Shown here: piece after piece, positions 34,588-64,000 of the stretch
How the letters are laid out: each line of letters starts with the position of its first letter
Position numbering within the stretch: the stretch's first letter is position 1
Assembly (NCBI GenBank): GCA_963840455.1
Contig: CAWIYV010000008.1
Location: 31,977 to 95,976 of the forward strand
DNA length: 64,000 bases
Direction: 5' to 3'
Source of the DNA: Nitrospirota bacterium
GTDB lineage: Bacteria; Nitrospirota; UBA9217
Notes under the pieces: generated by a model
Database searches by the model: none
The model's input: the letters and a program-made list of their open reading frames with translations, nothing else
What the model was told of the DNA's origin: nothing
Made by a program: the position numbers and the translations under genes

Positions 34588-36951
34588 ATGATATCCATAA
34601 GGACAGCTTCCCTTCTTGTTCTGGTCCTTTCCGCCATGGCCGTTGGATGCGCCGGAAAGGCTTTGCCCCCTGTGGCGGTTCCCGTGCCAACAAGGACGAT
34701 CCACTACTTGGCCGAGGTCAAGCCGATCCTCGATAAGCGCTGCACCGTATGCCATTCCTGCTACAATTCCCCCTGTCAGCTCAAGCTCGACTCCTTCGAG
34801 GGCGCTGACCGGGGCGCCACCAAGAGGGCCATCTACAACGCCGGCCGTCTGACCTCCATGGACCCCACCCGCCTCTTCACTGACGCGCAGACAACGAAGG
34901 AATGGCGGAACAAGGAGTTCTTCAGCGTCACCGACAGCTCGGTCTCGGGCGGATCGAACGATTCGATCATGATCCAGATGCTGTCCCACAAGATGAAGAA
35001 CCCGAAAAGCGAGGGGGAGTACCGGCCGGAAACGGAGGAACTGACCTGCGCCGAGGACCGGAAAGAACTGGGGAAGTATCTCAAGAAGCACCCGAACCGC
35101 GGCATGCCCTACGGCTTCCCACCGCTCAAGAAGGAAGAGTTCGAGATCATCGCCGGCTGGCTGGTCCAGGGAGCGAAGGGGCCTGATGCCGAGCAACAGC
35201 GGGAGCTAACCGCGCCGAAGCACGTGGACGCCCGCGCTATCGGGCAATGGGAAGCGTTCCTGAACCACGACGGCGCCAAGCACGCCATGACCGCGCGCTA
35301 TCTCTACGAACACCTCTTCCTGGCCCACATCAAGTTCGGCACACCGACCAACGAGTATTATGAACTGGTCCGCTCGAAGACCCCGACCGGCCAGCCCATC
35401 GACCTGATCGCCACCGTACGCCCCTACGACGACCCCGGCGTCGAACGGGTCTATTACCGCTTCCGGAAGATACACTCCACTATCGTCCAGAAGACCCACA
35501 TGGTGTTCGATTTCGATGATGCCCAGCTGCGGCGCTTCCAGGAGCTCTTTATCGATACGGAATGGCTCCAGCCGCCGCATCCCGTGGGGTATGACCCGAA
35601 GCTGAGCGCCAATCCCTTCGCGGCCTTCGAGCAGATCCCGCCGCGCTCGCGCTACCAGTTCCTGCTGGACAACGCGCATTATACCATCATGACCTTCATC
35701 CACGGCCCGGTCTGCAAGGGACAGATCGCCCTCAATGTGATCGACGACCATTTCTGGGTCCTGTTCCTGGACCCGGACCACGACCTCTCCGTCCGGTATC
35801 CGGGCTTCCTGAAGCTGCACCAGGAGAAACTGCGCATGCCCATCGAGAAGGGCAGCGACATGCGCATCTTCTCAGCGCTTACGGACGAGCACCGGAAGGC
35901 GGAGGTGGAGTTCTACAAGGTGCGGCAGGACTATTATATGTCCCACAACTACTCGGGCCTGGACTACAAGGCCATCTGGAAGGGGAACCGCGCCGCGGAC
36001 GCTCCGCTCCTTACCATATACCGCCATTTCGACAGCGCCTCTGTGCACAAAGGGGCGCTCGGAAATTTGCCGAAAACGCTGTGGGTGATGGACTACCCGC
36101 TGATCGAGCGGATCTATTACGCCCTCGTCGCAGGGTTCGATGTGTACGGCACCGGAGGCCATCAGCTGGCCATCCGGCTCTACATGGACGGGCTGCGCAT
36201 CGAAGGGGAAAGCTATTTCCTGGACTTCCTGCCGCAGTCAATGCGGCAGGAGATCATGCAGTCATGGTATAAGGACGTTGATCTCAAAAAGATCAACTAC
36301 TATCCGTCCTCGATGCCCGCCGGGACCGCCTTTGTAACCGGCGATCCCAAACGGGAATTCGTTGAACTGGTCGTGAACAAGCACCTTCTTCCCGAGACCG
36401 CCATCCGTTTCGATCGGGTGAACTACTTGCGGGCGGGCGAATCCTATCCGGACCTTCCGAAGGCCTATGCGACCCCTGCCGACTATGTGCAGGCCTTCCG
36501 CTCCATGGCAAGGCCCGGGACCGCGTTCTTCAGGCTGATCAATGACTACAGCGCCAATCTGGCCTATGTACGGGTCCGCCGGGACGCGGGAAAGGATGTG
36601 GCGTTCACCATCATCGTCAACCGCTGGCACGACAATGTGAATTTCCTGGTGGGCGAGGACGCCAGGCTCGATCCGTCAAAGGACGGCGCCGATTTCATCC
36701 AGGGGCTGATCGGTTCCTACCCCAACTTCTTTGTCGATGTCCGGGAAAAGGACCTGCCCGATTTCATCGACCTCCTTGCCCATTTCGACAAGAGCCCGAG
36801 GGACATGGAGCGGCTGGCCAGATACGGCATCAACAGGGCGGACGAGCGGTTCTGGGATGTCTATGACTGGTTCCAGAAGCGCTTCCAGGAGGATGAGCCG
36901 GTACACTCGGGGCTCTTTGACCTGAACCGGTACTACCACACTGCACGATAG
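34588..36951 (+). CDS. cti: Fatty acid cis/trans isomerase (heme c lipoprotein)
   Basis: 'RCTVCHSCYNSPCQLKL' heme motif, 'RYLYEHLFLAH', 'GPVCKGQIA', 'RHFDSASV', C-terminal 'GLFDLNRY'. Confidence 0.92.
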   Translation: MISIRTASLLVLVLSAMAVGCAGKALPPVAVPVPTRTIHYLAEVKPILDKRCTVCHSCYNSPCQLKLDSFEGADRGATKRAIYNAGRLTSMDPTRLFTDAQTTKEWRNKEFFSVTDSSVSGGSNDSIMIQMLSHKMKNPKSEGEYRPETEELTCAEDRKELGKYLKKHPNRGMPYGFPPLKKEEFEIIAGWLVQGAKGPDAEQQRELTAPKHVDARAIGQWEAFLNHDGAKHAMTARYLYEHLFLAHIKFGTPTNEYYELVRSKTPTGQPIDLIATVRPYDDPGVERVYYRFRKIHSTIVQKTHMVFDFDDAQLRRFQELFIDTEWLQPPHPVGYDPKLSANPFAAFEQIPPRSRYQFLLDNAHYTIMTFIHGPVCKGQIALNVIDDHFWVLFLDPDHDLSVRYPGFLKLHQEKLRMPIEKGSDMRIFSALTDEHRKAEVEFYKVRQDYYMSHNYSGLDYKAIWKGNRAADAPLLTIYRHFDSASVHKGALGNLPKTLWVMDYPLIERIYYALVAGFDVYGTGGHQLAIRLYMDGLRIEGESYFLDFLPQSMRQEIMQSWYKDVDLKKINYYPSSMPAGTAFVTGDPKREFVELVVNKHLLPETAIRFDRVNYLRAGESYPDLPKAYATPADYVQAFRSMARPGTAFFRLINDYSANLAYVRVRRDAGKDVAFTIIVNRWHDNVNFLVGEDARLDPSKDGADFIQGLIGSYPNFFVDVREKDLPDFIDLLAHFDKSPRDMERLARYGINRADERFWDVYDWFQKRFQEDEPVHSGLFDLNRYYHTAR

Positions 36952-36965
36952 AAAGACAAGACGAT

Positions 36966-37892
36966 ATGTCATCCGTTCCCGGAAGGAAGGCGCACCACTG
37001 GTCCATGGCCCCGGCTGCCGCAGTCCTTTTGCTCATTTGCGGCGGGCGGGGTTCTGCGGCAGAACCAGCGACGTCCCTCACCGGCACCACGCCGCCGCAG
37101 GAGGCCTCGGCGATCGAGGACAGGCTCAGAAGCGAGCGGGCGACGCGGGAGAACAGCTTCGTGCTGACGCCGCACCGGCCGAACTACATCCTTCCGGTCA
37201 CGTACAACACCAGCGTGAACAGGGCGCCGTACGGGGCCGAGGGGGAACAACTGCAGCCGGTGGAGGTCAAGTTCCAGATCAGCTTCAAGGTCGACGTTGC
37301 CGAAGACCTTTTCGGAAAGAACGGCGACCTCTATATCGCCTACACCCAGCTGTCGATGTGGCAGGCGTACAATTCGGACTACTCTTCTCCCTTTCGTGAA
37401 ACGAACTACGAACCCGAGGCCTTCCTGGCCTTCGATACCGACGTCCCCGTGTTCGGCCTTCGCAACCGCATCCTGTCGTTCGGCATCGTCCACCAGTCCA
37501 ACGGCAGGTCCGAGCCGCTGTCGCGGAGCTGGAACCGGGTCTACGCCGAGTTCGTGCTCGACCGCGGCCGGTTCGCGCTTTCGCTCAAACCGTGGTACCG
37601 CTTCCGGGAGCCCGCCGCGGAGGACGACAACCCGGACATCGGCAGGTATCTCGGCCCCGGTGAGATCCGGATGTTCTATGAATGGAAGAAATACGTGGTG
37701 GGGCTGATGGTGCGGAACAATTTCCGTCTCCACGATCAGAAGGGCGCCGAGCAGCTCGAATTCAGCTTTCCGCTCACCCGCAGGATCAAGGGATATTTCC
37801 AGTATTTCTACGGCTACGGCGAGACGCTCATCGACTACAACGCGCGGACGAACCGCGTCGGCATCGGCATCCTGCTGACCGACTGGTTATGA
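36966..37892 (+). CDS. pldA: Outer membrane phospholipase A1 (OMPLA)
   Basis: 'EVKFQISFK', 'SPFRETNYEPE', catalytic 'HQSNG...SRSWNRVY', 'GYGETLIDYN'. Confidence 0.93.
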   Translation: MSSVPGRKAHHWSMAPAAAVLLLICGGRGSAAEPATSLTGTTPPQEASAIEDRLRSERATRENSFVLTPHRPNYILPVTYNTSVNRAPYGAEGEQLQPVEVKFQISFKVDVAEDLFGKNGDLYIAYTQLSMWQAYNSDYSSPFRETNYEPEAFLAFDTDVPVFGLRNRILSFGIVHQSNGRSEPLSRSWNRVYAEFVLDRGRFALSLKPWYRFREPAAEDDNPDIGRYLGPGEIRMFYEWKKYVVGLMVRNNFRLHDQKGAEQLEFSFPLTRRIKGYFQYFYGYGETLIDYNARTNRVGIGILLTDWL

Positions 37893-51789: not shown

Positions 51790-52509
51790 ATGAAGATATT
51801 GGTCATCGATATCGGCGGGAACAGTGTCAAGATCCTCGTCACTGGACAGACAGACCCCCGGAAATTTCCCTCAGGGCCGACATTAACCCCTCAGAAGATG
51901 GTAGCAGGGGTGCTTAAGCTGACCGAAGACTGGAAGTACGATGCGGTCTCGATCGGCTACCCGGGGCGGGTGCGCGACAACCGGCCGTATGCGGAACCGG
52001 TCAATCTTGGGCGTGGATGGCTCCGTTTCGACTATGCAAAGGCGTTCGGGGTGCCGGTGAAGGTAATGAATGATGCCGCCATGCAGGCCTTGGGGAGCTA
52101 CAAAGGCGGAACGATGATGTTCCTCGGTCTCGGGACCGGGCTGGGAACCGCCCTGGTCGTCAATGGCACGGTGGTGCCCATGGAGCTTGGGCACCTGACC
52201 TACAAGCAGGCGACCTACGAGGACTACCTGGGGCTCAAGGGGCTCGAGAAACTGGGCATCAGGAAGTGGCGGGCCTTCGTACGGGAGGTGGTCTCCCGTT
52301 TCATTCCCGCGCTCGAGCTTGACGACGTGGTCATTGGCGGCGGCAACGTCAACAAGCTGGACAGGCTGCCGCCGAGGTGCCGGGCAGGCGACAACGCCCT
52401 CGCATTTCGCGGCGGTTTTCTGTTGTGGGAGCATGGGAAGGCGAGACGAAAAAGATCTAAAACTATTCTTACCGCCAAGGCGCGAAGGACGCGAAGGGAG
52501 TCAAGATGA
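51790..52509 (+). CDS. ppgK: ROK family polyphosphate/ATP glucokinase
   Basis: 'IDIGG', 'NDAAMQALG', 'GLGTGLG', 'ELGHL', 'IGGGN'. Confidence 0.8.
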   Translation: MKILVIDIGGNSVKILVTGQTDPRKFPSGPTLTPQKMVAGVLKLTEDWKYDAVSIGYPGRVRDNRPYAEPVNLGRGWLRFDYAKAFGVPVKVMNDAAMQALGSYKGGTMMFLGLGTGLGTALVVNGTVVPMELGHLTYKQATYEDYLGLKGLEKLGIRKWRAFVREVVSRFIPALELDDVVIGGGNVNKLDRLPPRCRAGDNALAFRGGFLLWEHGKARRKRSKTILTAKARRTRRESR

Positions 52510-52649
52510 GTAAATAAGAACGATTTTGACACGGATAAAGTCGGATGAAAACCGGATAGAGGCGGATCGTGTTTTGGATTAATCCGCAGTTATCAGGATG
52601 TTGATCCGCTCCTTCCGTGTCAAAGACTTTATCCAGACTGGAGCATCGC

Positions 52650-53939
52650 ATGTCCGATATTGACCTTGATTTCACCATAGCACGCCTGGGCGAGTGCCGC
52701 ACCTCATCGCCCATGTCCGGCGTCCGGTTCACGCGGGACGAGGAGCGCGTGCTGTACCACTCCCGTCTCGAGGAGATACGCCCATGGATCGGCGGGCGCG
52801 CAGATCCCCCTTCAATGGAGGCCGCAGGACCGAGGGAACGGATATTCTTCGATCCATCGAAGCTTGCCTGCGGGATCGTGACCTGCGGCGGGCTCTGTCC
52901 CGGCCTCAACGATGTTATACGCGCGATCGTCCTGAGCCTCTACCACCATTACGGAGTGAAAAAGGTCTACGGGTTCCGCTTTGGCTACGAGGGTCTGGTG
53001 CAGAGGATCGGCCACACACCGCTCGAACTGACGCCCGACAAGGTCAACCGGATCCATGAGCAGGGCGGATCGATCCTGGGCTCCTCGCGGGGGCCGCAGG
53101 ACCCGGCGGAGATGGTAAGGACCCTCGAAGAGCTAAAGGTCGGCATCCTCTTTACCATCGGCGGAGACGGGGCGCTCCGTGGAGCGCAGAAGATCGCCGA
53201 TGAGGCAGTGAGGCGCGGCCTCAAGATCAGCGTCATCGGCATCCCGAAGACCATCGACAACGACGTGTCGTTCGTGCAGAAGACCTTCGGATTCGAGACT
53301 GCGGTCACCGAGGCGCGGCGAGCGACCTACGCAGCCAATACCGAGGCGGAGGCGGCACGCAACGGGATCGGGCTGGTGAAGCTCATGGGCCGCGATTCAG
53401 GCTACATTGCCGCCTATTCGGTCCTGGTCGACAGTCACGTGAACTTCTGCCTTGTTCCCGAGGTCCCGTTCACCCTTGAGCGGTTCCTCTCTGAACTAAA
53501 ACAGAGGCTCCAAAGTCGTGGCCATGCGGTGATCGTTGTCGCGGAAGGGGCTGGCCAGGACCTCATGGAGAGGATGGCCGAGCGCGACGCTTCGGGGAAC
53601 GTCAAGTACGGTGACATCGGAACGTTCCTGAGGGATGCCATCAAGGGCCACTTCAAGCAGACCGGCATGGAAATAAGCCTCAAGTATATCGACCCGAGCT
53701 ACACGATCAGGAGCGTGCCGGCGGACGCCCATGACTCTGCCTTCTGCCTGCAGCTCGGGCAGAGCGCCGTGCACGCGGGCATGAGCGGCAGGACGAACAT
53801 GGTCGTGAGCTTCTGGAACCACCAGTTCACCCATGTGCCCATCTCCCTGGCTGTGTCGCAGCGCAAGAAGATCGACCCCAAGGGAGTCCTCTGGAGCAGC
53901 GTGCTCGCCTCGACCGGGCAGCCGGCGGACATGCGGTGA
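52650..53939 (+). CDS. pfkA: 6-phosphofructokinase, long-clade, probably ATP-dependent
   Basis: 'TCGGLCPGLN', 'GGDG' (Gly suggests ATP), 'PKTIDND', 'MGRDSG', 'YIDPSY'. Confidence 0.92.
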   Translation: MSDIDLDFTIARLGECRTSSPMSGVRFTRDEERVLYHSRLEEIRPWIGGRADPPSMEAAGPRERIFFDPSKLACGIVTCGGLCPGLNDVIRAIVLSLYHHYGVKKVYGFRFGYEGLVQRIGHTPLELTPDKVNRIHEQGGSILGSSRGPQDPAEMVRTLEELKVGILFTIGGDGALRGAQKIADEAVRRGLKISVIGIPKTIDNDVSFVQKTFGFETAVTEARRATYAANTEAEAARNGIGLVKLMGRDSGYIAAYSVLVDSHVNFCLVPEVPFTLERFLSELKQRLQSRGHAVIVVAEGAGQDLMERMAERDASGNVKYGDIGTFLRDAIKGHFKQTGMEISLKYIDPSYTIRSVPADAHDSAFCLQLGQSAVHAGMSGRTNMVVSFWNHQFTHVPISLAVSQRKKIDPKGVLWSSVLASTGQPADMR

Positions 53940-53952
53940 TGGGAAGAATAGC

Positions 53953-54048
53953 ATGGAGATGATCGAGGCAGGCATGAGGGCAGCCCGGCTGATTTTTTCC
54001 CACGGCGACTTTGCGGCCCAAAGGGAGATCGTCGAGCTCAGCCGTTGA
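53953..54048 (+). pseudogene. Pyruvate kinase N-terminal remnant
   Basis: 'MIEAGMRAARLIFSHGD' matches the PK motif AGMNVARLNFSHG; 31 codons only. Confidence 0.65.
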
Positions 54049-54102
54049 GATCGAACATGAGAATATGAAGATGCGCTGACCTGTTGAGAGGGGATATCTA
54101 GT

Positions 54103-54846
54103 ATGAAGAAACTCGTACTGCTCCGCCACGGCGAGAGCACCTGGAACAAGGAGAACCGGTTTACCGGCTGGACAGACGTCGGCCTCACCGAAAAAGGAAG
54201 GGACGAGGCCGTCGAGGCGGGCAGGCTTCTCGCAAAGGAAGGTTTTGTCTTTGATGTGGCCTTCACCTCGGTGCTCAGGCGCGCGATCAAGACCCTCTGG
54301 ATCGTGCTCGAGGAGATGGACCTTATGTGGATCCCGGTCCAGAATCACTGGAGGCTTAACGAGCGCCATTACGGCGCGCTCCAGGGACTGAACAAGGCGG
54401 AGACCGCGGAGAAGCACGGTATGGAGCAGGTCAAGATCTGGCGAAGGAGCTACGACATACCGCCGCCGGCGCTTAGGTCGGACGACGACCGCTATCCTGG
54501 AAAAGACCCACGCTACGCGCACCTGAGGCCGGAAGATATCCCGCTGACGGAATCGCTCAAGGACACGGTCGCGCGCTTTCTCCCGTACTGGCACGAGACA
54601 ATCGCACCGGTCGTTCGGTCTGGAAAACGGGTGATCATCTCTGCCCACGGCAACAGCATCCGTGCGCTGGTCAAGTATCTCGATAATGTGCCTGAGGCGG
54701 AGATCGTCGGTCTGAATATCCCCACGGGGATACCCCTGGTATATGAGCTTGAGGATGATCTGAAGCCGATCCGCAGCTATTACCTTGGCGACCCCGAGGC
54801 GGCAAAGAAAGCGGCCCAGGCCGTGGCGGACCAGCTGAAGAAGTAA
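54103..54846 (+). CDS. gpmA: 2,3-BPG-dependent phosphoglycerate mutase
   Basis: 'LLRHGES.WN..NRFTGW', 'LNERHYG.LQG', 'AHGNS'. Confidence 0.96.
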
Positions 54847-54989
54847 CGCTACTTTGATCTCGCCCTGAGACACTGAGGACACAGAGAGCAACTGGGAAAG
54901 ATCTATCGTTTTTCATCATAGCCTTTGTCAGTGACATCAGTGTCAAAAGCCTTTCTCAGAAGTCGGTACTCAGAAATAAGGAGCCTGCC

Positions 54990-55424
54990 ATGAAGATCCT
55001 GACCACACCCCGCATGGAGCGTTGCATAGGCTGCCATTCCTGCTCCCTTGCCTGCAGCCGGATCGTACACAAGCGGCTCTCCTGGGACACCGCCGGCATC
55101 CGCATCCGGTCCTCCGGCGGCCTGTCCACGGGGTTCGAGGCGCGCGTCTGCCTTGCATGCGACCCGGCGCCCTGCGCCGCGGCCTGCCCGACAGGGGCGT
55201 ACACGCAGCGGAAAGGCGGGGGCGTGGTGGTCCGCAGGAACCTCTGCATCCGCTGCGGCGAGTGCGCAAAGGCCTGCCCCGTGGATGCCATCTATCTCGA
55301 CCCATCGCAGGAGCCCTTTGTCTGCATCCACTGCGGCCAGTGCGTACCCTTCTGCCCGCACGACTGCCTCGAGATGAACGAGGTCGCTGCACCGGAGCCT
55401 GCGCAGCAGGGAGGTGCGTCATGA
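54990..55424 (+). CDS. 4Fe-4S dicluster (polyferredoxin) small subunit
   Basis: Four Cys clusters (CIGCHSC..C, CLAC..C..CP, CIRCGEC...CP, CIHCGQC...CP). Confidence 0.92.
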   Translation: MKILTTPRMERCIGCHSCSLACSRIVHKRLSWDTAGIRIRSSGGLSTGFEARVCLACDPAPCAAACPTGAYTQRKGGGVVVRRNLCIRCGECAKACPVDAIYLDPSQEPFVCIHCGQCVPFCPHDCLEMNEVAAPEPAQQGGAS

Positions 55425-57196
55425 TCAGGGACAACTTCAGGGTCCTCGTGGTCGACCTGGCGACGGGCCGCGGCAGCGTCGTGACCGTGGACGGCAGGGA
55501 CAGCGTCGCGGGCGGCAGCGGGCTTGCGGCGCTCCTGTTCACCAAGTATGGCAAACCGGACCGGCCGTGGAACGATCCGGAGCAGCCGCTCATCTTCGCC
55601 ATCGGCCCCCTGACCGGCTATTTTCCGCTCATGAGCAAGACGGTCTGCGCCTTCAAGTCGCCCTACCACGACCAGTACGCGGAAAGCCACGGCGGCGGCC
55701 GCTCAGCGCTGTCGCTCCGCTTTGCCGACCTCGATGCGCTCGTTGTCATAGGCAAAGCCGCGAGGCCGTCGTGCATTTCGATTGGCTCGCGCCATCTGGA
55801 AGTAAAGGAGGTCCACTACCTCTGGGGAAGGGACCTCTATACCACCGGCAAGATGCTGCGCGGCATGTTCAAGGGAGCGGGCCACCGGAGCATTCTGCGC
55901 ATCGGACCGGCCGGCGAGACCGGCTCCGCCATGGCATGCATCAACGTAGACTCCTACCGCCATTTCGGCAGGCTCGGCGGAGGTGCGGTGATGGGGAACA
56001 AGAACCTCAAGGGCATCGTGATCAACGGCGACGGCTCCTTCGCCCTCGACGGCTCCAAAGAGTATCCGAAGCTCTTCCAGGATCTTCATACCAAGCTGAC
56101 GGACACCGACATGATGAGCAAGTACCACGACATCGGCACGCCGATCAACATGGCAATGCTGAACGAGGTGAAGATGCTTCCGATCCGCAACCTCCAGCGG
56201 ACGACCGATCCCGGCATCAGCGGCATCACGGGAGAGAAGTTCGCGGAGCTGGCCCTGCTCCGGAATGCGGCCTGCGCGGGCTGCCCGGTCGGCTGCATCC
56301 ACATCGGGTTCGTTCGCGAGCGGTTCCGGAAGGAGCACCGCTTTCTGTATCGGCAGGTCTCCTACGACCATGAGCCGATCTTTGCCGTGGGAGCCATGCT
56401 TTCGGTCGAGAACTGCTTCGCTGTTCTGGGCATCATCGATGTCGCCGAGAAGGTGGGGCTCGACATCATGTCGGCGGGTGTTGCCCTGGCCTGGGCCACC
56501 GAGGCGACGGAGAAAGGGCTCATCTCGGAGAAGGAGACGATCACCAAGCTTGCCTTCAGCGATAGCGACGCATACAAGCAGGCGATCCAGTACCTCGGCG
56601 AGGGAACAAACGAGTTCTACCGCCTCCTCGGGCAGGGTACGCTCAAGGCAGCAGAGCGCTACGGGGGGAAGGACTTCGCCTGCGTCCTCGGCCAGGAGAT
56701 GGGGGGGTACGCGACGGGAGAGGTCTTTTTCGTTTCCCAGGCGCTCGGTCTCCGGCATTCGCACCTGGACAGCGGCGGCTATTCCTACGACCAGAAGGAG
56801 AAGGGCAAGGACCCGGCAAAGGCCGTGGACTTCCTGGTGAAGGACGAGCAGGGGCGGGTGCTCCTCACATCCATGGTCGCCTGCCTCTTCGCTCGCGGCG
56901 TGTACACCGATGCGCTGCTGGCCGAATGTCTCAAGTCTGTGGGCTACGGTGCACTCGCCGACAACCTGGGAACGGTATCAAAGAACATCCAGCAGCTCCG
57001 CTGGAGGGCGCGCGTCGCGACGGGCTACCGGCCCGAGGACGTGGAGATCCCGAAGCGGTTCCTCGAGATCACTACCGGCAAGGGGTCCATGGACGCGGCA
57101 TACCTCGCCGCGATCAAGGACCAGTATGCGAAGGCCATAAGGGGCCTTGCGGCACCTGAAACGGACGAAAAATCTGCCCGTACGCAGGGGCCCTGA
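55421..57196 (+). CDS. Aldehyde:ferredoxin oxidoreductase family (W/Mo-pterin) large subunit, GOR/GAPOR-like
   Basis: 'GPLTG', 'KSP', 'IGPAGE', 'GRLGGGAVMGNKNLKGI', 'CAGCPVGC', 'YDHEP', 'GLDIMSAG'; ATGA-coupled to ferredoxin. Confidence 0.9.
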   Translation: MIRDNFRVLVVDLATGRGSVVTVDGRDSVAGGSGLAALLFTKYGKPDRPWNDPEQPLIFAIGPLTGYFPLMSKTVCAFKSPYHDQYAESHGGGRSALSLRFADLDALVVIGKAARPSCISIGSRHLEVKEVHYLWGRDLYTTGKMLRGMFKGAGHRSILRIGPAGETGSAMACINVDSYRHFGRLGGGAVMGNKNLKGIVINGDGSFALDGSKEYPKLFQDLHTKLTDTDMMSKYHDIGTPINMAMLNEVKMLPIRNLQRTTDPGISGITGEKFAELALLRNAACAGCPVGCIHIGFVRERFRKEHRFLYRQVSYDHEPIFAVGAMLSVENCFAVLGIIDVAEKVGLDIMSAGVALAWATEATEKGLISEKETITKLAFSDSDAYKQAIQYLGEGTNEFYRLLGQGTLKAAERYGGKDFACVLGQEMGGYATGEVFFVSQALGLRHSHLDSGGYSYDQKEKGKDPAKAVDFLVKDEQGRVLLTSMVACLFARGVYTDALLAECLKSVGYGALADNLGTVSKNIQQLRWRARVATGYRPEDVEIPKRFLEITTGKGSMDAAYLAAIKDQYAKAIRGLAAPETDEKSARTQGP

Positions 57197-57257
57197 GCCG
57201 CTTCCCCTCGCTCTTAGCCGAAAGGAACGTTTTCAGTCATTTGATCTTCGTCAAACC

Positions 57258-59399
57258 ATGAATTCGGTAACCATCATCTGGTCCATGGTCGCGTCCGCAT
57301 GCCTCACGCTGGCGGCTATGCATCTGCTCGTCTGGTTCAGGGACCGGACGGCCTGGATCAATCTGCTCATTGCACTGACGGCGATGGCGACATCCGCCAT
57401 GATGTTCTGCGAGCTTAGGATGATGCTGGCGGCGACACCCGGACAGTTCGCCACAGCGCTGCGCTGGCTTCATGTTCCGGCGTGGGTGATCATCGTGGCG
57501 CTGGTCGGCTACATGCAGCTCCATCTGCGGGCAGGACGGTTATGGCTCGCCTGGACCGTCTGCGGCCTTCGGACGATCTCGCTCCTGCTTAACTTTCTGA
57601 CGGGGCAGAATCTCAACTATCGCGAGGTCACCATACTGCGGCACATCCCGTTCTTAGGCGAAACCGTCTCGGTTGCCGAGGGTGTGTCGAATCCCTGGAT
57701 GCTCGTCGGACAGGTAAGCCTGGTGTTGTGGGTGGTTTTCGTCGCCGATGCCGCGATCACCGTCAGGCGCAGGGGCGACAGGCGGCTGGCGCTGGCAACG
57801 GGTGGCGCCATAGTTTTCTTTGCACTGGCTGGAACAGTACAGGCCGTGCTGGTGCTCTGGGAAATTGTCCACTGGCCGATGACGGCGAGCTTATTCTACA
57901 TGGGTATTGTCGCGGCGATAGTCTACGAAATGAGCCTCGATGTGCATCGATCAGCGAAATTGGCACAAAACCTCCGTGAGAGCGAAGCGCGGCTGAGGGA
58001 CATCACGTTCAGCATGGGCGATTGGGTGTGGGAAGTGGATGAAAAGGGGGTCTATAGCTATAGCTCGGCGAAGGGCACTGTACTGTTCGGTCACGTTATC
58101 GGGAAGACACCGTTCGAGCTTATGCCGCCGGATGAAGCAAAGCGGGTGGCGGCGATCTTCTCCGAGATCGCGGCAAAGAAGCTGCCCATCAAAGACCTGG
58201 AGAACTGGAATATCGGAAAGGACGGCGAAAGGATCTGCCTCCTCACGAATGGCGTGCCCCTCTTGGACGAAGCGGGCAATCTCAAGGGCTATCGCGGCGT
58301 TGACAAGGACATCACCGAGCGCAAGCTGGCAGAGGCAGCGCGACTGGAAAGCATGGAGCGGTACCGGGCCGTGGTGGAAGCTTTTGACGGTTTCCTCTAC
58401 ATCTGTTCGCCGGATTTCCGCATGGAGTTCATGAACCAGCGATTGATCGATCGCACCGGTCGTAACGCCATCGGTGAGACGTGCTACAAGGCATTGCATA
58501 ACAAAGATTCCATCTGTGAGTGGTGTGTCAACGAGAAGGTCTTTCAGGGCAAGACAGTGCGATGGGAAGTGCAGAGCCCGAAAGACCATCGCTGGTACTA
58601 TGTGGTGAACACTCCCATCCGTCATGCCGACGGGACCATGTCCAAGCAGTCCATGATCATGGATATCACCGAACGCAAACTGGCGGAAGATGCATTGAAG
58701 AAAAGCGAGGCAGCCCTCAGATACTCCCAGAAAGATCTCCAGAAACTGGCGGGCAGGTTGATCTCCGCTCAGGAAGAGGAGCTCCGCAGGCTGTCACGGG
58801 AACTCCACGACGACCTGACGCAGAGGCTGGCGGTCCTTGCCATCGAGGCCGGCAAGCTGGAGCTCGACCTGAAGAAACGGCCGGATGTTCAGGGAAACGC
58901 TGTTGAGAGGATATTGCAGATAAAGGAACAGCTCATCAAGGTATCCGAAGACGTCCACACTATCTCGCGTCAGATCCATCCCACCATCCTCGACGACCTG
59001 GGGCTCGTCCGCGCCATAGAGTCGGAGTGCGCCATGTTCTTGAGAAGGCACTCGATCATGTCCTCCTTCATCAAGGACCACATCCCCGACGCGATTCCCG
59101 ACGATATCGCCCTCTGTCTCTACCGTGTTGTCCAGGAAGGATTGCGGAACATCGCGGTCCATTCCCGGGCGAAGAGCTGCAAGATCGTCCTGCACGTGTC
59201 CGGCGATGCCATTTGCCTTGCTGTCACGGATGACGGCGTAGGATTCGATCCCCTGGAGATCCGGAACACTCCGGGGCTGGGGCTCTCAAGCATGCGCGAA
59301 CGGGTCCAACTTGTCGAGGGTGACTTTGCGATACGGTCGCAGCCGGGAAAAGGCACGGAGATCACGGTGTGCGTGCCTCTTGCAGGCGGTGACGCATGA
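57258..59399 (+). CDS. Membrane sensor histidine kinase with two PAS domains (HisKA_3/NarX-NreB type)
   Basis: Multi-TM N-terminus, PAS/PAC 'DITERK' x2, 'RELHDD', 'DDGVGF', 'GLGL..MRER'. Confidence 0.92.
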   Translation: MNSVTIIWSMVASACLTLAAMHLLVWFRDRTAWINLLIALTAMATSAMMFCELRMMLAATPGQFATALRWLHVPAWVIIVALVGYMQLHLRAGRLWLAWTVCGLRTISLLLNFLTGQNLNYREVTILRHIPFLGETVSVAEGVSNPWMLVGQVSLVLWVVFVADAAITVRRRGDRRLALATGGAIVFFALAGTVQAVLVLWEIVHWPMTASLFYMGIVAAIVYEMSLDVHRSAKLAQNLRESEARLRDITFSMGDWVWEVDEKGVYSYSSAKGTVLFGHVIGKTPFELMPPDEAKRVAAIFSEIAAKKLPIKDLENWNIGKDGERICLLTNGVPLLDEAGNLKGYRGVDKDITERKLAEAARLESMERYRAVVEAFDGFLYICSPDFRMEFMNQRLIDRTGRNAIGETCYKALHNKDSICEWCVNEKVFQGKTVRWEVQSPKDHRWYYVVNTPIRHADGTMSKQSMIMDITERKLAEDALKKSEAALRYSQKDLQKLAGRLISAQEEELRRLSRELHDDLTQRLAVLAIEAGKLELDLKKRPDVQGNAVERILQIKEQLIKVSEDVHTISRQIHPTILDDLGLVRAIESECAMFLRRHSIMSSFIKDHIPDAIPDDIALCLYRVVQEGLRNIAVHSRAKSCKIVLHVSGDAICLAVTDDGVGFDPLEIRNTPGLGLSSMRERVQLVEGDFAIRSQPGKGTEITVCVPLAGGDA

Positions 59400-60034
59400 A
59401 GCGTCCGCGTGTTCTCCTGGCTGATGATCACAAGATCGTGACCGAAGGCCTCAAAGGCCTTCTGGAGCCGGAGTTCGAGCTTGTCGGGATCGTCGAGGAC
59501 GGCCGCGCGCTTCTTGCCGCCGCGGAGAAACTGCGGCCTGATGTGGTCGTGGCGGACATCTCCATGCCGCTTTTGAACGGCATTGATTCCGTCCGTCAGA
59601 TCAAGAAGGCACACGGGGAGATCAAGGTCGTCTTTCTGACCATGCACCCCGATGTGACCTATGCGGTCAGCGCTTTTGAAGCAGGGGCTTCGGGATATGT
59701 CCTGAAGCATTCGGCTCCGACCGAGCTGGTCACCGCCATTCGAAGCGCGTTGAATGGAAAGACCTATGTGACGCCCTTGCTTGCTGATGAGTTCAAGCAA
59801 TTGACCAGTGAAAAGACGGACCAGCGTGACGAGCTCACCATGCTCACCCCGCGCCAGCGCGAGATCCTGCAATTGCTCGCCGAAGGCCATTCCGCAAAGA
59901 AGATCGCCACAGTGCTCAACATCTCCTCGAGGACCGTGGAATTCCACAAATACCGGATCATGAAGGACCTCGGCATCAAGAGCGCTGCAGAATTGGTCCA
60001 CTACGCTGTACGGCACGGCATCGTCACAAAGTAG
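59396..60034 (+). CDS. NarL/LuxR family response regulator
   Basis: 'LADDH', 'DISMP', HTH 'LTPRQREIL...TVEFHK'. Confidence 0.95.
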   Translation: MKRPRVLLADDHKIVTEGLKGLLEPEFELVGIVEDGRALLAAAEKLRPDVVVADISMPLLNGIDSVRQIKKAHGEIKVVFLTMHPDVTYAVSAFEAGASGYVLKHSAPTELVTAIRSALNGKTYVTPLLADEFKQLTSEKTDQRDELTMLTPRQREILQLLAEGHSAKKIATVLNISSRTVEFHKYRIMKDLGIKSAAELVHYAVRHGIVTK

Positions 60035-60641: not shown

Positions 60642-61853
60642 ATGAAAAATCTTGAGCTGATGCAGCTAACAGAGGACATATCTTCGTTCAGGACTCACCG
60701 ACATTCAACGAACATTGCCCTGCATAGCACTGCGGCTGGCGACGGACAGGCATACATCGTGGCTTCGGTCCTTCGTGACGAGGATCCCGCCACGGCGGCG
60801 CGGAAATTGTATTGCATGGTCGCAGAGGTACTGCAGAACAGACGCATGACGATCGTTCACGAACGAATATTCGGAAATCTGAGCGTCAAAGCCGCGGTGC
60901 TTCGTGAGCGGAAGGTTGCGCTCTCCGGGCGGCAGATCCCTGCATACGGTGCCGTTACCTATGTTGAAGGCAATCCAACCTGGGGAGAGGGCTTTTCCGG
61001 GGTAATCATTCACGCGGTATCGTCTGATGGTGCAGATGATGTCTGGACCATTATGGATGGGGAAGCCCCCTGCGGACGCGGATGGCGCAGGAGCGGAACA
61101 ACATATCTTCTGCTGCAGAACATTCAGGGAAAGGCAGGCACCAGGCCCGGACAGGTGCGGGCGATCCTTGCCCGCGCCGAAGGCATTCTCCGCCGGAACG
61201 GAGCGTCCTACAAGGATGTAGCGCGAACATGGTTCTATCTCTCCGGAATATTGGACTGGTATCCGGAATTCAACAAGGCACGGAGCGAAAAATACGGGGA
61301 GTTCGGCATCATGCCCGGTCCCGGCGACACCAGGCTTCTGCTTCCTGCTAGCACCGGCATAGGCGCGAATACGGCGTCAGGCGCGGCAGCCTCAATGGAC
61401 CTGCTGGCTGTTATGGAAAACGGTGATATGCCCTCGCCGGTACGAAAGATGACCAACAGAAAACAGCTCGATGCCTTCCGTTACGGAGCAGCATTCTCGC
61501 GCGGGGCTGTCATCGAGGCAGATGATGTAAAGCTCATCCAGGTTTCGGGCACCGCAGCCATAGATGAGCATGGCGTGAGCCTCTATACCGGCGATATCCG
61601 CGCACAGATCAACTGCACACTGGACAAGATAGATTCACTGCTTGGACAGGAAGGGGCGGACCTCAGGAATATCGCTGCAGCCACTGTGTTTGTGAAAAGA
61701 CCGGAATATGCTTCGATCTTTTGGAAAATGGCTGCTGACCGAGGGTTTGCGGATTTCCCGGCTATCTGTGTTGTTGCTGATGTATGCAGGGAGGGGTTGC
61801 TTTTTGAGATCGATGCAGAGGCTGCTGTGAGAAAGGAATCAACATGCGCGTAG
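60642..61853 (+). CDS. Tandem Rid/YjgF-fold protein (FkbO/Hyg5 chorismatase-like)
   Basis: 'RTWFY', 'PASTGIG', 'FSRG', 'VSGTAAID', 'ADVCR..LLFEIDA'. Confidence 0.75.
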   Translation: MKNLELMQLTEDISSFRTHRHSTNIALHSTAAGDGQAYIVASVLRDEDPATAARKLYCMVAEVLQNRRMTIVHERIFGNLSVKAAVLRERKVALSGRQIPAYGAVTYVEGNPTWGEGFSGVIIHAVSSDGADDVWTIMDGEAPCGRGWRRSGTTYLLLQNIQGKAGTRPGQVRAILARAEGILRRNGASYKDVARTWFYLSGILDWYPEFNKARSEKYGEFGIMPGPGDTRLLLPASTGIGANTASGAAASMDLLAVMENGDMPSPVRKMTNRKQLDAFRYGAAFSRGAVIEADDVKLIQVSGTAAIDEHGVSLYTGDIRAQINCTLDKIDSLLGQEGADLRNIAAATVFVKRPEYASIFWKMAADRGFADFPAICVVADVCREGLLFEIDAEAAVRKESTCA

Positions 61854-64000
61854 TCCAAATCCTATTCATCATCTGTTTGTCCTTCTCGCTACTGGCACAT
61901 GCTGAAGAAAAACAAACCGCCCCCTACGCCGGCTCTTCAAGCTGCCGTGAGTGCCATGAGAAGTTCTACCAGCTCTGGTCCACGTCCAAGCACGGACTTG
62001 CCATGCAGCCCTACACGCTGGGATTCGCCGCCATCCAGCTCAGGTCGCATCAGGGTGAGATCATGATCGGCAAGGAGAAATACCGCGCCGATATCGTCGA
62101 AGGCGTGGTGATCGAGACGCGTGAAAAGGTGGTGACGAAATACAAGATCGAGCATGTGCTGGGAGGCAAGAATGTCTACTACTTCCTCACGCCCTTCAAA
62201 AAGGGGAGGCTCCAGACCCTGCCCATTGCCTATGACGTCAACAAGAAGGAGTGGTTCGACACCGCTGCCAGCGGCATGCGCCACTTCCCAGGAGGGGAGC
62301 AGGGCCAGGCAGTCGCCTGGAGGGAATACCCCTACACTTTCAATACCGCCTGCTACAGCTGCCACGTGAGCCAGCTCTCGACCAACTACGATCAAAAGAC
62401 CGACACCTACCACACGACCTGGTCCGAGCCGGGCATCAACTGTGAGACCTGCCATGGCTCGGCGATCGAGCACAACAAGATCGCGAAGGCCACGCCCAAG
62501 GGCCAGCCGCTTCCGGAACTTCGGATCATCCGCACCAAGACCATGACGAAGGTGCAGAGGAACGACCTCTGCTCGAGCTGCCATGCGAAGGCAAGTCCGC
62601 TGACCCTGGAGTACCAGCCCGAGGATCGGTTCTATGACCACTTTGACCTCGTGACCCTGGAGGACCCGGATTACTACGTTGACGGGCGGGATCTGGGAGA
62701 GAACTACACGCTCACCTCGTGGAGCATGAGCCCCTGTGCAAAATCCGGCAAGATCGATTGCATGCACTGTCATACATCCAGCGGCCGCTACCGGTTCAGG
62801 AAGGAGAAGTTCAACAACGCCTGTCTACCCTGCCATGAGGCCAGGGTCAACAACCCGACAGAGCATACGCATCATCTCGCGGAAAGCGAGGGAAGCAAGT
62901 GCATCTCCTGCCACATGCCCATGACCGCTTTCGCGCGGATGAACCGGAGCGACCACTCGATGCTTCCGCCGACACCGGCAGCGACCCTTGTCTACAAGTC
63001 GCCCAATGCCTGCAACATCTGCCACAAGGACAAGGACGGGTCATGGGCCGACAAATATGTACGGCAGTGGCGCACCCGGGACTACCAGGCAGCGGTCCTG
63101 AAACGCGCGGCACTTATTGACGCGGCCCGCAAACGGGACTGGACGAAGCTGCCGGAGATGCTTGCTTACATTAGCGACCCCAAGCACGACGAGATCTTCG
63201 CCACCTCGCTCATCAGGCTCATTCCACCATCGCAGGACCAGGCGGTCCTTACGGCGTTGCTCATGGCGGCCAAGGACCCATCGCCCCTCGTTCGTGGCGC
63301 AGCTGTCCAGGCACTGGGACTGGTGCCGACCACAGAAAACCTCAAGGCCCTGGTCGAAGCAACGGGAGATGACTATAAGTTGGTGAGGGTTCGGGCGGCA
63401 GCAGGGATCGCGGCATTCCCGAGAATGACCACCCCTCCTGCCTATCAGGAGCAGCTCAAGAGGGCGAACGACGAGTATCTCGCGTCCATCACAGCACGGC
63501 CTGACCAGTGGACGTCCCATTACAACATGGGCAACTACCAGCTCAGCCAGGGCGAGACGAAGAAAGCCGTGGCCTCCTATCAGGCAGCGCTGAAACTCGA
63601 TCCCCAGGCGATCATGGCGATGGTGAATACGTCCATCGCCTATGCCCAGATGGGCGAGAACGACAAAGCTGAGCGGTCTTTGCAGAAGGCGCTCAAGCAG
63701 GCTCCTGACAATGCTGCAGCGAACTTCAACATGGGCCTTCTGAAGGCGGAGAAGAACGAACCCAGACAGGCCGAGAAGTATCTCAAGAAAGCATTCAAGG
63801 CCGATCCCCAGATGGCGCAGGCGGCCTATAACCTCTGCATCATCATCGCAAAAGACCGGATCAACGAGGCGGTGACCTGGTGCAGGAAGGCCTCGGACCT
63901 CAGGCCGCAGGAACCGAAATATGCCTATACCCTTGCCTTCTATCTCAATCAGAAGGGCGAGAAGGCCGAGGCGGTAAAGATCTTAAAGCCGATCGTCGAG
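61844..64000 (+). CDS. Octaheme c-type cytochrome with HEAT and TPR repeats (3'-truncated; absent from ORF track)
   Basis: RBS AAGGA, Sec signal, CRECH, CYSCH, CETCH, CSSCH, CMHCH, CLPCH, CISCH, CNICH; 'DPSPLVR..A' HEAT; TPRs; frame open to window end. Confidence 0.9.
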   Translation, partial: MRVVQILFIICLSFSLLAHAEEKQTAPYAGSSSCRECHEKFYQLWSTSKHGLAMQPYTLGFAAIQLRSHQGEIMIGKEKYRADIVEGVVIETREKVVTKYKIEHVLGGKNVYYFLTPFKKGRLQTLPIAYDVNKKEWFDTAASGMRHFPGGEQGQAVAWREYPYTFNTACYSCHVSQLSTNYDQKTDTYHTTWSEPGINCETCHGSAIEHNKIAKATPKGQPLPELRIIRTKTMTKVQRNDLCSSCHAKASPLTLEYQPEDRFYDHFDLVTLEDPDYYVDGRDLGENYTLTSWSMSPCAKSGKIDCMHCHTSSGRYRFRKEKFNNACLPCHEARVNNPTEHTHHLAESEGSKCISCHMPMTAFARMNRSDHSMLPPTPAATLVYKSPNACNICHKDKDGSWADKYVRQWRTRDYQAAVLKRAALIDAARKRDWTKLPEMLAYISDPKHDEIFATSLIRLIPPSQDQAVLTALLMAAKDPSPLVRGAAVQALGLVPTTENLKALVEATGDDYKLVRVRAAAGIAAFPRMTTPPAYQEQLKRANDEYLASITARPDQWTSHYNMGNYQLSQGETKKAVASYQAALKLDPQAIMAMVNTSIAYAQMGENDKAERSLQKALKQAPDNAAANFNMGLLKAEKNEPRQAEKYLKKAFKADPQMAQAAYNLCIIIAKDRINEAVTWCRKASDLRPQEPKYAYTLAFYLNQKGEKAEAVKILKPIVE

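What the first reader, a model, noticed from the sequence alone, without database searches (positions are those of the whole stretch)
51790..57196. Glycolytic cluster with a two-subunit AOR-family enzyme: probable GAPDH/PGK bypass
Seen: ppgK-like ROK kinase, pfk, pyk remnant, gpmA, then a 144 aa polyferredoxin ATGA-coupled to a 591 aa AOR-family protein with YDHEP where typical AORs have EYE. There is no gap or pgk in the cluster. Known: archaeal GAPOR and the heterodimeric GOR of Caldicellulosiruptor bescii oxidise GAP directly to 3-phosphoglycerate with ferredoxin. Inference: a ferredoxin-reducing, possibly polyphosphate-primed Embden-Meyerhof variant in a Gram-negative anaerobe, with gpmA taking the product.
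Basis: partly seen in the sequence, partly recalled or inferred. Interest (0 to 1): 0.72.

Follow-up and report, generated by a model that had tools for sequence, protein, structure and literature searches.

The report
GOR-like tungsten enzyme in glycolysis island
A two-gene, ferredoxin-linked tungsten-type oxidoreductase sits in a sugar-breakdown gene cluster of a Syntrophales-like anaerobe and most likely oxidises glyceraldehyde-3-phosphate without making ATP, an enzyme type already known from Caldicellulosiruptor.

Summary
Window 51790-57196 encodes a ROK kinase, an ATP-phosphofructokinase, a 31-codon pyruvate kinase remnant, gpmA, a 144-aa 4x[4Fe-4S] protein (WorS), and a 591-aa AOR/WOR-family protein (WorL) joined to WorS by an ATGA overlap.

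WorL is not a classical AOR. It lies in a well-separated superclade of two-subunit enzymes, with signatures Y-D-[YH]-E and R-H-S-H. All cofactor ligands and the four second-shell catalytic residues are kept.

In 13 of 19 orthologous loci (window included; five families of the phylum) WorS-WorL lies beside pyk, gpmA, eno, pgi, phosphoglucomutase, pfk, gap or glk, in at least six gene orders. None has pgk. More distant superclade members sit beside pyk, PFK, PPDK, or archaeal FBP aldolase/phosphatase.

The genome keeps a gap-pgk-tpi operon elsewhere, so this is a parallel branch, as in C. bescii, not a replacement.

Best reading (0.65): a GOR-type glyceraldehyde-3-phosphate:ferredoxin oxidoreductase in a catabolic glycolysis/glycogen island.

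Two points remain open. I could not obtain the CbGOR sequence, so clade membership is untested. Polyphosphate priming is not supported.

The scan has noted the same kind on other DNA (four earlier notes). Verdict: new member of a known kind, moderate interest.

The parts
51790..52509 (+). ROK-family sugar kinase (239 aa), substrate and phosphoryl donor unknown
   Evidence: PF00480, E 2e-07. Best NCBIfam hit is PPGK at 62.6 bits against a cut-off of 250. PDB 3lm2 'putative kinase' E 2e-74; polyP/ATP-glucomannokinase 1woq E 3e-08. Not found beside the orthologues in 0 of 18 loci.
52617..53939 (+). ATP-dependent 6-phosphofructokinase (440 aa)
   Evidence: PF00365, E 7e-62. NF005301, 659.8 bits against a cut-off of 400.
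53953..54048 (+). Remnant of pyruvate kinase (31 codons from the N-terminal part; about 1.35 kb deleted)
   Evidence: tblastn against the pyk of same-genus locus L037, E 1e-07. DNA is 77.5% identical over 80 nt. An intact pyk stands at this place in L037, L044 and L045.
54103..54846 (+). gpmA, 2,3-bisphosphoglycerate-dependent phosphoglycerate mutase (247 aa). It is a second PGAM beside the genome's iPGM.
   Evidence: NF010713, 429 bits against a cut-off of 305. iPGM is on contig C7.
54990..55424 (+). WorS: small polyferredoxin subunit with 16 Cys in four CxxCxxCxxxC-type motifs (4 x [4Fe-4S]) and no twin-arginine signal
   Evidence: It aligns end to end with the Fe-S subunits of P. furiosus WOR5/ASOR (6x1o_B) and 9mqx_E. 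AGGAG lies 7 nt before the ATG.
55421..57196 (+). WorL: AOR/WOR-family catalytic subunit (591 aa), GOR-like superclade
   Evidence: AFOR_N plus AFOR_C. ATGA overlap with WorS. Tree and signatures. Kept residues: Cys285/288/292/488, Thr240, Glu318, Tyr430, His448.
57147..59399 (+). PAS sensor histidine kinase (HisKA_3 type). Possible regulator; true start probably later than 57147.
   Evidence: Found next to WorL only in the same-genus locus L037, so the link to the enzyme is weak.
59396..60034 (+). LuxR/GerE-type response regulator paired with the kinase
   Evidence: 93% identical copy at the same place in L037.

Best explanation
WorS-WorL is a cytoplasmic, two-subunit (Class II) tungsten/pyranopterin oxidoreductase of the bacterial GOR type.

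**Proposed mechanism.** WorL oxidises glyceraldehyde-3-phosphate directly to 3-phosphoglycerate at the metallopterin site. Electrons pass through its own [4Fe-4S] cluster and the four clusters of WorS to ferredoxin. gpmA, which is encoded just upstream, converts the product to 2-phosphoglycerate.

**Proposed role.** The island gathers the catabolism-specific steps: sugar kinase, PFK, formerly PYK, and this enzyme plus a dedicated mutase. The reversible gap-pgk-tpi operon elsewhere serves gluconeogenesis. The branch gives up one ATP per triose. In return it yields low-potential electrons that a syntroph can release as H2 or formate. It probably acts in the breakdown of stored glycogen or sugars.

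**Shown here:** gene anatomy, family placement, conserved ligands, and conserved linkage to glycolysis genes.

**Inferred:** substrate, metal, electron acceptor and physiological role.
For: **1. Anatomy.**
- The two genes are translationally coupled, and WorS has four cluster motifs and no Tat signal.
- All four [4Fe-4S] cysteines of WorL are kept in 19 of 19 orthologues. So are the equivalents of the second-shell residues Thr243, Glu313, Tyr427 and His448.
- The review PMC12096430 (passages read) says the GOR clade keeps all four of these residues, while archaeal GAPOR keeps only Thr and Glu.

**2. Not a classical AOR.**
- The best solved structure scores 160 bits.
- Among 50%-identity representatives, a set of relatives scores 290-730 bits, while the rest of the family scores 200 bits or less.
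- In a 148-row FastTree the superclade (81 rows) has support 100 and the window's clade (19 rows) has support 99.
- The genome's two other AOR paralogues fall in the outgroup.

**3. Linkage to glycolysis genes.**
- In 13 of 19 orthologous loci (window plus 12 of 18 fetched), at 66% identity or more and across families f1, f11, f24, f25 and f26, WorS-WorL lies within 8 kb of glycolysis genes.
- Gene orders differ between loci: pyk-gpmA-WorSL; pyk-gpmA-eno-gap-WorSL; eno-PGM-WorSL-pgi-pyk; pgi-WorLS opposite pyk-gpmA-PGM; pfk..gpmA-WorSL..glk; pyk-WorSL.
- None of the 19 loci has pgk.

**4. Wider superclade.**
- Pfam scans covered the nearest neighbours (77 ORFs) of 40 distant loci. About 10 of the 40 loci had a sugar-metabolism neighbour: pyk, PPDK, PFK, archaeal FBP aldolase/phosphatase, PfkB kinase, DeoC-type aldolase, a GH57 branching enzyme, or trehalose-P synthase.
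- WorS stands beside WorL in 71 of 80 loci. Five others are cut by a contig end.

**5. Genome background fits a parallel branch.** The genome has gap-pgk-tpi, iPGM, glycogen phosphorylase, and TupA/TupB-like tungstate transporter genes. The transporter genes score below the equivalog cut-offs.
Against: **No direct comparison with CbGOR.** Six searches returned no Caldicellulosiruptor row. The tie to the characterised enzyme therefore rests on shared class, residues and context.

**Some orthologous loci lack the linkage.**
- Five of 19 loci have no glycolysis neighbour (L041, L042, L052, L053, L054), and one is uninformative (L040, contig end).
- L041 and L042 (78% identical) lie among Tct and CitMHS transporters, a tautomerase and a PrpR-type activator.

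**Neighbours also fit another aldehyde.** Some loci carry ackA and ldh/mdh, which would also fit an acetaldehyde or lactaldehyde role.

**The broad screen was weak.** Only 3 of 80 distant loci had glycolysis genes by the phmmer screen.

**No clear phosphate-binding signature.**
- The superclade replaces an Arg that is common in other AORs with Gly433. It has Asp450 where others often have Arg.
- What it gains is His446.

**Related genomes are not independent samples.**

**The island may be decaying here.** pyk is deleted, and the class II FBP aldolase elsewhere reads in two frames. The latter may be an assembly error.

**No activity, metal or expression data exist.**
Confidence: 0.65

Rival explanations
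1. It oxidises, or reduces the acid of, a different fermentation-linked aldehyde. Candidates are acetaldehyde, lactaldehyde/methylglyoxal-derived aldehydes, or unphosphorylated glyceraldehyde. It would be co-located with glycolysis genes because it belongs to the same fermentation regulon.
For: ackA, a GNAT gene and ldh/mdh lie in the same islands in L037, L038, L039 and L044. A glycerate-kinase-type gene (DUF4147/MOFRL) lies next to a distant member, L063. An earlier scan note (e1-4649342, unchecked) raised an acetate-reducing branch.
Against: The tightest and most repeated partners are gpmA, pyk, eno, PGM and pgi. Often only a few dozen bases separate them from WorS-WorL. ackA and ldh are farther away and appear only in family f1. 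The superclade is distinct from the broad-spectrum AORs.
Confidence: 0.15
2. It is a general aldehyde-detoxifying Class II WOR of unknown substrate. On this view the glycolytic neighbourhood is inherited gene order within one lineage, not a functional link.
For: Five of 19 orthologous loci have unrelated neighbours. Only 3 of 80 distant loci scored in the phmmer screen. According to PMC13328260 (section read), 38 Class II clades have no characterised member.
Against: At least six different gene orders keep the link, across five families. Distant bacterial and archaeal members sit beside non-homologous sugar-phosphate enzymes. Inherited order cannot explain either point.
Confidence: 0.12
3. It runs in reverse, reducing 3-phosphoglycerate to GAP with reduced ferredoxin. 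That would give an ATP-saving gluconeogenic shortcut in an organism that lives on fatty or aromatic acids.
For: Relatives carry Syntrophales, Syntrophus or Syntrophorhabdus names. From general knowledge, such organisms are mostly gluconeogenic. AOR-type enzymes can reduce acids with very low-potential donors (abstract of PMC9295118, seen in the listing).
Against: The partners are the catabolic, irreversible enzymes PFK and PYK, not FBPase or PEP synthase. The review PMC12525153 (passages read) states that GAPOR works only in the catabolic direction and gives about -26 kJ/mol for it.
Confidence: 0.05

Closest known systems
GOR (formerly XOR) of Caldicellulosiruptor bescii: heterodimeric glyceraldehyde-3-phosphate:ferredoxin oxidoreductase, WOR clade 20, Class II
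   Same: It has a two-subunit WorL plus WorS (4 x [4Fe-4S]) architecture. It is cytoplasmic, and all four second-shell residues are kept. It works beside a conventional GAPDH, and ferredoxin is the presumed acceptor. Sources: PMC13328260 section 9 and PMC12096430 passages, and my.
   Different: The host here is a mesophile-type Syntrophales-like bacterium, not a thermophilic cellulolytic Firmicute. The gene pair is built into a glycolysis island. The window's clade has His at the position of PfAOR Tyr312 in 19 of 19 rows. Sequence relatedness to CbGOR itself was not measured. That XOR and GOR are the same enzyme is recalled and repeated in earlier scan notes; I did not read it in a paper.
Archaeal GAPOR (P. 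furiosus, WOR clade 23, Class I)
   Same: It catalyses the same proposed reaction and has the same pathway logic: a non-phosphorylating, ferredoxin-linked step with GAPDH/PGK kept for gluconeogenesis.
   Different: GAPOR is monomeric and has no WorS. According to PMC12096430 it lacks recognisable similarity in the Tyr/His region. Here WorS is present and Tyr430 and His448 are kept.
P. furiosus WOR5/ASOR (PDB 6x1o, 6x6u), the other characterised Class II WOR
   Same: It has the WorL-WorS architecture, and WorS aligns along its whole length.
   Different: WorL scores only 85 bits against it. ASOR acts on aliphatic sulfonates and aldehydes.
P. furiosus AOR sensu stricto (PDB 1aor)
   Same: It has the same fold family, the same cluster cysteines, and the same Thr/Glu/Tyr/His set.
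   Different: It scores 158 bits. It is a homodimer without WorS. The outgroup, where classical AOR-type rows sit, has P-E-Y-E, P-R and G where this superclade has Y-D-[YH]-E, T-G and H446.

Membership tests
Bacterial GOR (Class II WOR, clade 20) | Catalytic WorL subunit with metallopterin domains and one [4Fe-4S] cluster | tested here: met
   AFOR_N plus AFOR_C. Cys285/288/292/488 align with PfAOR Cys288/291/295/494 and are kept in 19 of 19 orthologues.
Bacterial GOR (Class II WOR, clade 20) | Small subunit WorS with four [4Fe-4S] clusters, cytoplasmic (no Tat signal), encoded beside WorL | tested here: met
   Four Cys motifs, an ATGA overlap, and no twin-arginine N-terminus. Matches the WOR5 and 9mqx Fe-S subunits.
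Bacterial GOR (Class II WOR, clade 20) | All four second-shell residues (Thr243, Glu313, Tyr427, His448 in PfAOR numbering) conserved | tested here: met
   Thr240, Glu318, Tyr430 and His448 are kept in 19 of 19 orthologues. The criterion comes from PMC12096430.
Bacterial GOR (Class II WOR, clade 20) | Groups with C. bescii GOR-L in a phylogeny | not testable with these tools
   No Caldicellulosiruptor sequence appeared. The papers with the trees are not held, and the clade table of PMC13328260 is too large to read. Earlier scan notes claim a sister relation, but these are unchecked.
Bacterial GOR (Class II WOR, clade 20) | Specific oxidation of GAP to 3-phosphoglycerate with ferredoxin; tungsten in the active site | not testable with these tools
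   Only indirect evidence: glycolytic linkage and TupA/TupB-like genes below their cut-offs.
Archaeal GAPOR (Class I, clade 23) | Single subunit; Tyr/His region not conserved | tested here: not met
   WorS is present and coupled. Tyr430 and His448 are conserved.
AOR sensu stricto / FOR / WOR5 / BamB / YdhV | Close sequence relation to the characterised enzymes | tested here: not met
   PDB scores are 160 to 60 bits, against 290-730 bits for superclade representatives. The YdhV model NF007354 scores 97.7 bits against a cut-off of 868. The PDB sequences themselves were not in my tree.
Polyphosphate glucokinase (PPGK), for the ROK gene | Score above the equivalog cut-off of NF045942 | tested here: not met
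   62.6 bits against a cut-off of 250.

The most novel reading that the evidence does not exclude
The whole Y-D-[YH]-E / R-H-S-H superclade would consist of GAP:ferredoxin oxidoreductases. It includes the Thermodesulfobacteriota clade of this window. It also includes the Methanothrix and Methanocellales enzymes that sit beside FBP aldolase/phosphatase.

If so, non-phosphorylating, ferredoxin-linked glycolysis would be a common way for mesophilic syntrophs and acetoclastic methanogens to burn stored glycogen, not a thermophile speciality. The window's clade would be a separate lineage with its own active-site His317.
Probability: 0.3. Interest if true: 0.6.

Novelty: new member of a known kind. 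Interest (0 to 1): 0.4.

Why it matters
If the assignment is right, syntrophic Thermodesulfobacteriota split central carbon metabolism the way hyperthermophilic archaea do. A reversible gap-pgk-tpi set would serve sugar synthesis. A separate, irreversible, ferredoxin-producing route would serve sugar or glycogen breakdown.

That route costs one ATP per triose. In return it delivers electrons at a potential from which H2 or formate can be made even under syntrophic conditions. This changes energy and redox budgets in models of these organisms. It would also make tungsten a nutrient for their carbohydrate catabolism.

The kind of enzyme is already known, and this scan has already met the same arrangement on other DNA. 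The value here is added breadth, not a new principle.

Tried and rejected
**1. Obtaining CbGOR-L for a direct tree.** I tried:
- three word-index searches;
- two cluster look-ups;
- the genome-contig scan;
- the Atlas.

None gave a Caldicellulosiruptor row.

**2. Papers.**
- Scott 2019, Schut 2021 and Scott 2015 are not held.
- The supplements of PMC13328260 and PMC9424855 that I could read hold no clade list with these taxa. The full clade table is too large to read and may bear on clade membership.

**3. Prior reports.** The paper search 'glyceraldehyde-3-phosphate ferredoxin oxidoreductase' plus 'Syntroph' listed 15 of 16 papers. No title or abstract start in the listing concerns such an enzyme in Syntrophales, but I did not open them.

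**4. Expression.** No RNA holder was listed.

**5. Promoter and terminator scan.**
- It found no + strand terminator between gpmA and WorS.
- It also found no promoter there, so co-transcription is not settled.

**6. Classical AOR assignment.** Rejected.

**7. Archaeal GAPOR assignment.** Rejected.

**8. Class V (membrane or Tat) assignment.** Rejected, because WorS has no twin-arginine N-terminus.

**9. Structure and complex prediction.** Not run. WorS-WorL is a textbook pair, and the tools return no coordinates for inspecting the pocket.
Full report
**What is there**

On the + strand the window carries the following genes.

| Coordinates | Product | Evidence |
|---|---|---|
| 51790-52509 | ROK-family kinase | |
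| 52617-53939 | ATP-dependent phosphofructokinase | NF005301, 659.8 bits against a cut-off of 400 |
| 54103-54846 | gpmA | NF010713, 429 bits against a cut-off of 305 |
| 54990-55424 | 144-aa polyferredoxin (WorS) | |
| 55421-57196 | 591-aa AOR/WOR-family protein (WorL) | AFOR_N plus AFOR_C |

- The ATG of WorL overlaps the stop of the polyferredoxin gene as ATGA. Both genes have Shine-Dalgarno-like sequences.
- The polyferredoxin has 16 cysteines in four cluster motifs and no twin-arginine leader.
- It aligns end to end with the Fe-S subunits of two solved WOR complexes.
- Between pfk and gpmA, positions 53953-54048 read 31 codons. They match residues about 27-52 of the intact pyruvate kinase that stands at the same place in a same-genus genome (tblastn E 1e-07; DNA 77.5% identical over 80 nt).

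About 1.35 kb of pyk has been deleted in this genome.

A PAS histidine kinase and a LuxR-type regulator follow WorL. That pair is next to the enzyme only in the same-genus relative.

**Which organism**

The closest proteins (78-92% identity) carry Syntrophales, Syntrophorhabdus and Syntrophus gentianae names. The genome has 4.03 Mb in 14 contigs and is rated 100% complete.

**Genome background**

The genome holds three AOR-family genes. Elsewhere it also holds:
- a canonical gap-pgk-tpi operon on contig C11;
- a cofactor-independent phosphoglycerate mutase;
- enolase next to a phosphoglucomutase-type gene, and a full pyk;
- glycogen phosphorylase;
- two TupA-like genes and a TupB-like gene. 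Their best NCBIfam hits are the tungstate transporter models, but the scores are below the equivalog cut-offs.

The island therefore adds a branch. It does not replace GAPDH/PGK.

**What kind of AOR-family protein**

*Scores against known and representative sequences*
- Against solved structures, the best scores are 160 bits (9mqx_D) and 158 bits (P. furiosus AOR). WOR5 scores 85 bits and BamB 60 bits.
- An exhaustive search of 1.84 billion representatives shows a step in scores. One representative reaches 727 bits (55% identity). About twenty full-length ones reach 290-500 bits (31-45%). The rest of the family lies at 200 bits or less.

*The tree*
- I built a FastTree of 148 rows. These were the window, full-length representatives, 18 orthologues, 40 named loci, and the genome's two paralogues.
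- Rows under 520 aa, and 40 of the 80 loci, were left out.
- The tree has a superclade of 81 rows (support 100). Inside it, the window's clade has 19 rows (support 99).
- Both paralogues fall in the outgroup.

*Residues*
- Kept in 19 of 19 orthologues: the cluster cysteines and the equivalents of Thr243, Glu313, Tyr427 and His448.
- Nearly invariant superclade signatures are Y315-D316, T432-G433 and H446. The outgroup has P-E (45 and 59 of 67 rows), P-R (51 and 63 of 67 rows) and G (67 of 67 rows) at these positions.
- His317, the 'H' of YDHEP, is in all 19 orthologues. The other superclade rows have mostly Tyr there (44 of 62), and so does the outgroup (59 of 67).

**Gene neighbourhoods**

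*Orthologues*
- A search of 401 genomes of the phylum found the protein in 50.
- Eighteen genomes besides the window's own hold an orthologue at 66-92% identity. The rest hold relatives at about 40%.
- Presence is patchy: 7 of 63 genomes of the family, and 1 of 5 other genomes of the genus.

I fetched up to 8 kb on each side of the 18 orthologues. I annotated them by tblastn, Pfam and phmmer.

| Result, counting the window (19 loci) | Loci |
|---|---|
| Glycolysis genes beside WorS-WorL | 13 |
| Cut by a contig end | 1 (L040) |
| Unrelated neighbours | 5 (L041, L042, L052, L053, L054) |

The gene orders differ:
- ackA-GNAT-pyk-gpmA-WorSL (L037);
- pyk-gpmA-eno-gap-WorSL (L044);
- pyk-gpmA-WorSL (L045);
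- pyk-WorSL (L043);
- eno-phosphoglucomutase-WorSL-pgi-pyk (L046);
- pgi-WorLS facing pyk-gpmA-phosphoglucomutase (L048);
- pfk..gpmA-WorSL..glucokinase (L049).

An isoamylase-type gene follows WorL in L038. No locus has pgk.

*Distant superclade members*
- A scan of one genome per species found more than 560 relatives carrying the superclade motifs. The 80 kept come from Thermotogota, Synergistota, Bacillota, Nitrospirota, Chloroflexota, Atribacterota, Methanothrix and others.
- WorS is beside WorL in 71 of the 80. Five more are cut by contig ends.
- My phmmer screen used Thermodesulfobacteriota queries. It found glycolysis genes in only 3 of the 80.
- Pfam scans covered the single nearest neighbour on each side in 40 of these loci (77 ORFs).
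- About 10 of the 40 loci had a sugar-metabolism neighbour:
  - pyk, PPDK and PFK;
  - archaeal FBP aldolase/phosphatase (three methanogen loci);
  - a PfkB kinase and a DeoC-type aldolase;
  - a GH57 branching enzyme;
  - trehalose-phosphate synthase.

**Reading**

The pattern has four parts:
- tight and repeatedly reshuffled linkage to the enzymes just before and after the triose oxidation step;
- absence of pgk from these islands;
- a dedicated mutase next door;
- a conventional gap-pgk-tpi operon kept elsewhere.

This is what one expects of a non-phosphorylating GAP:ferredoxin oxidoreductase. Two such enzyme types are known:
- monomeric archaeal GAPOR;
- heterodimeric bacterial GOR of C. 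bescii, a Class II WOR. [quoted passage not shown]

The architecture and the four conserved residues fit GOR and exclude GAPOR.

I give this reading 0.65. The main gap is that I never obtained the CbGOR sequence, so placement with it is untested. Activity, metal and expression are unknown.

**Against the reading**
- Five orthologous loci lack the linkage.
- Two of those five lie among tricarboxylate-type transporters.
- ackA and ldh in some islands would also suit another aldehyde.
- The sequence shows no clear gain of phosphate-binding basic residues.
- The island in this genome has lost pyk.

'Polyphosphate-primed' is not supported.
- The ROK kinase scores 62.6 bits against a PPGK cut-off of 250.
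- Its nearest solved relative is an uncharacterised kinase.
- It is absent from all 18 related loci.

**Novelty**

The enzyme kind is known. Four earlier notes of this scan describe the same arrangement on other DNA. Three of them share sequence words with this protein. They are unchecked notes and I did not count them as evidence.

I found no listed paper about such an enzyme in Syntrophales (listing only).

I rate this a new member of a known kind, with interest 0.4.

Noticed in passing
window 34588-37892: A fatty acid cis/trans isomerase (PF06934, 871 bits) is followed directly by a phospholipase A1 (PF02253). From general knowledge, the isomerase is known mainly from aerobic Pseudomonas and Vibrio, so the pair is unexpected in a Syntrophales-like anaerobe.
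   Followed up: no
window 60642-61853 and 61844-64000: A 403-aa protein combines a weak FkbO/Hyg5 chorismatase match with a Rid/L-PSP domain. A large protein follows it, with multihaem cytochrome c motifs, HEAT repeats and TPR repeats, and runs off the window.
   Followed up: no
own genome G000:C11:241366-242326: The only class II fructose-bisphosphate aldolase match is split into two adjacent pieces in different frames. This is either a frameshift or an assembly error. It bears on whether the Embden-Meyerhof route is complete here.
   Followed up: no
L041 and L042 (genomes G042, G063; orthologues at 78% identity): Here WorS-WorL lies between TctABC and CitMHS-type carboxylate transporters. 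A tautomerase and a PrpR-N sigma-54 activator are also nearby, and there are no glycolysis genes. This is a different regulatory setting for the same enzyme.
   Followed up: partly
L078, L084, L092 (Methanocellales, Methanothrix, Methanocrinis): Superclade members of methanogens lie directly after the bifunctional FBP aldolase/phosphatase gene. A PfkB kinase or a DeoC-type aldolase follows them.
   Followed up: partly
L038, L039 (genomes G209, G215): pyk and gpmA beside WorS-WorL are broken into pieces in several frames. In L050 no WorS was found beside WorL. Together with the pyk deletion in the window, this hints that the island decays in several lineages, or that these assemblies are poor.
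   Followed up: no
L052 (genome G291): A MoaB/MogA-type molybdopterin gene and a MOSC-domain gene lie within 2 kb of WorL. This is a cofactor-related neighbourhood.
   Followed up: no
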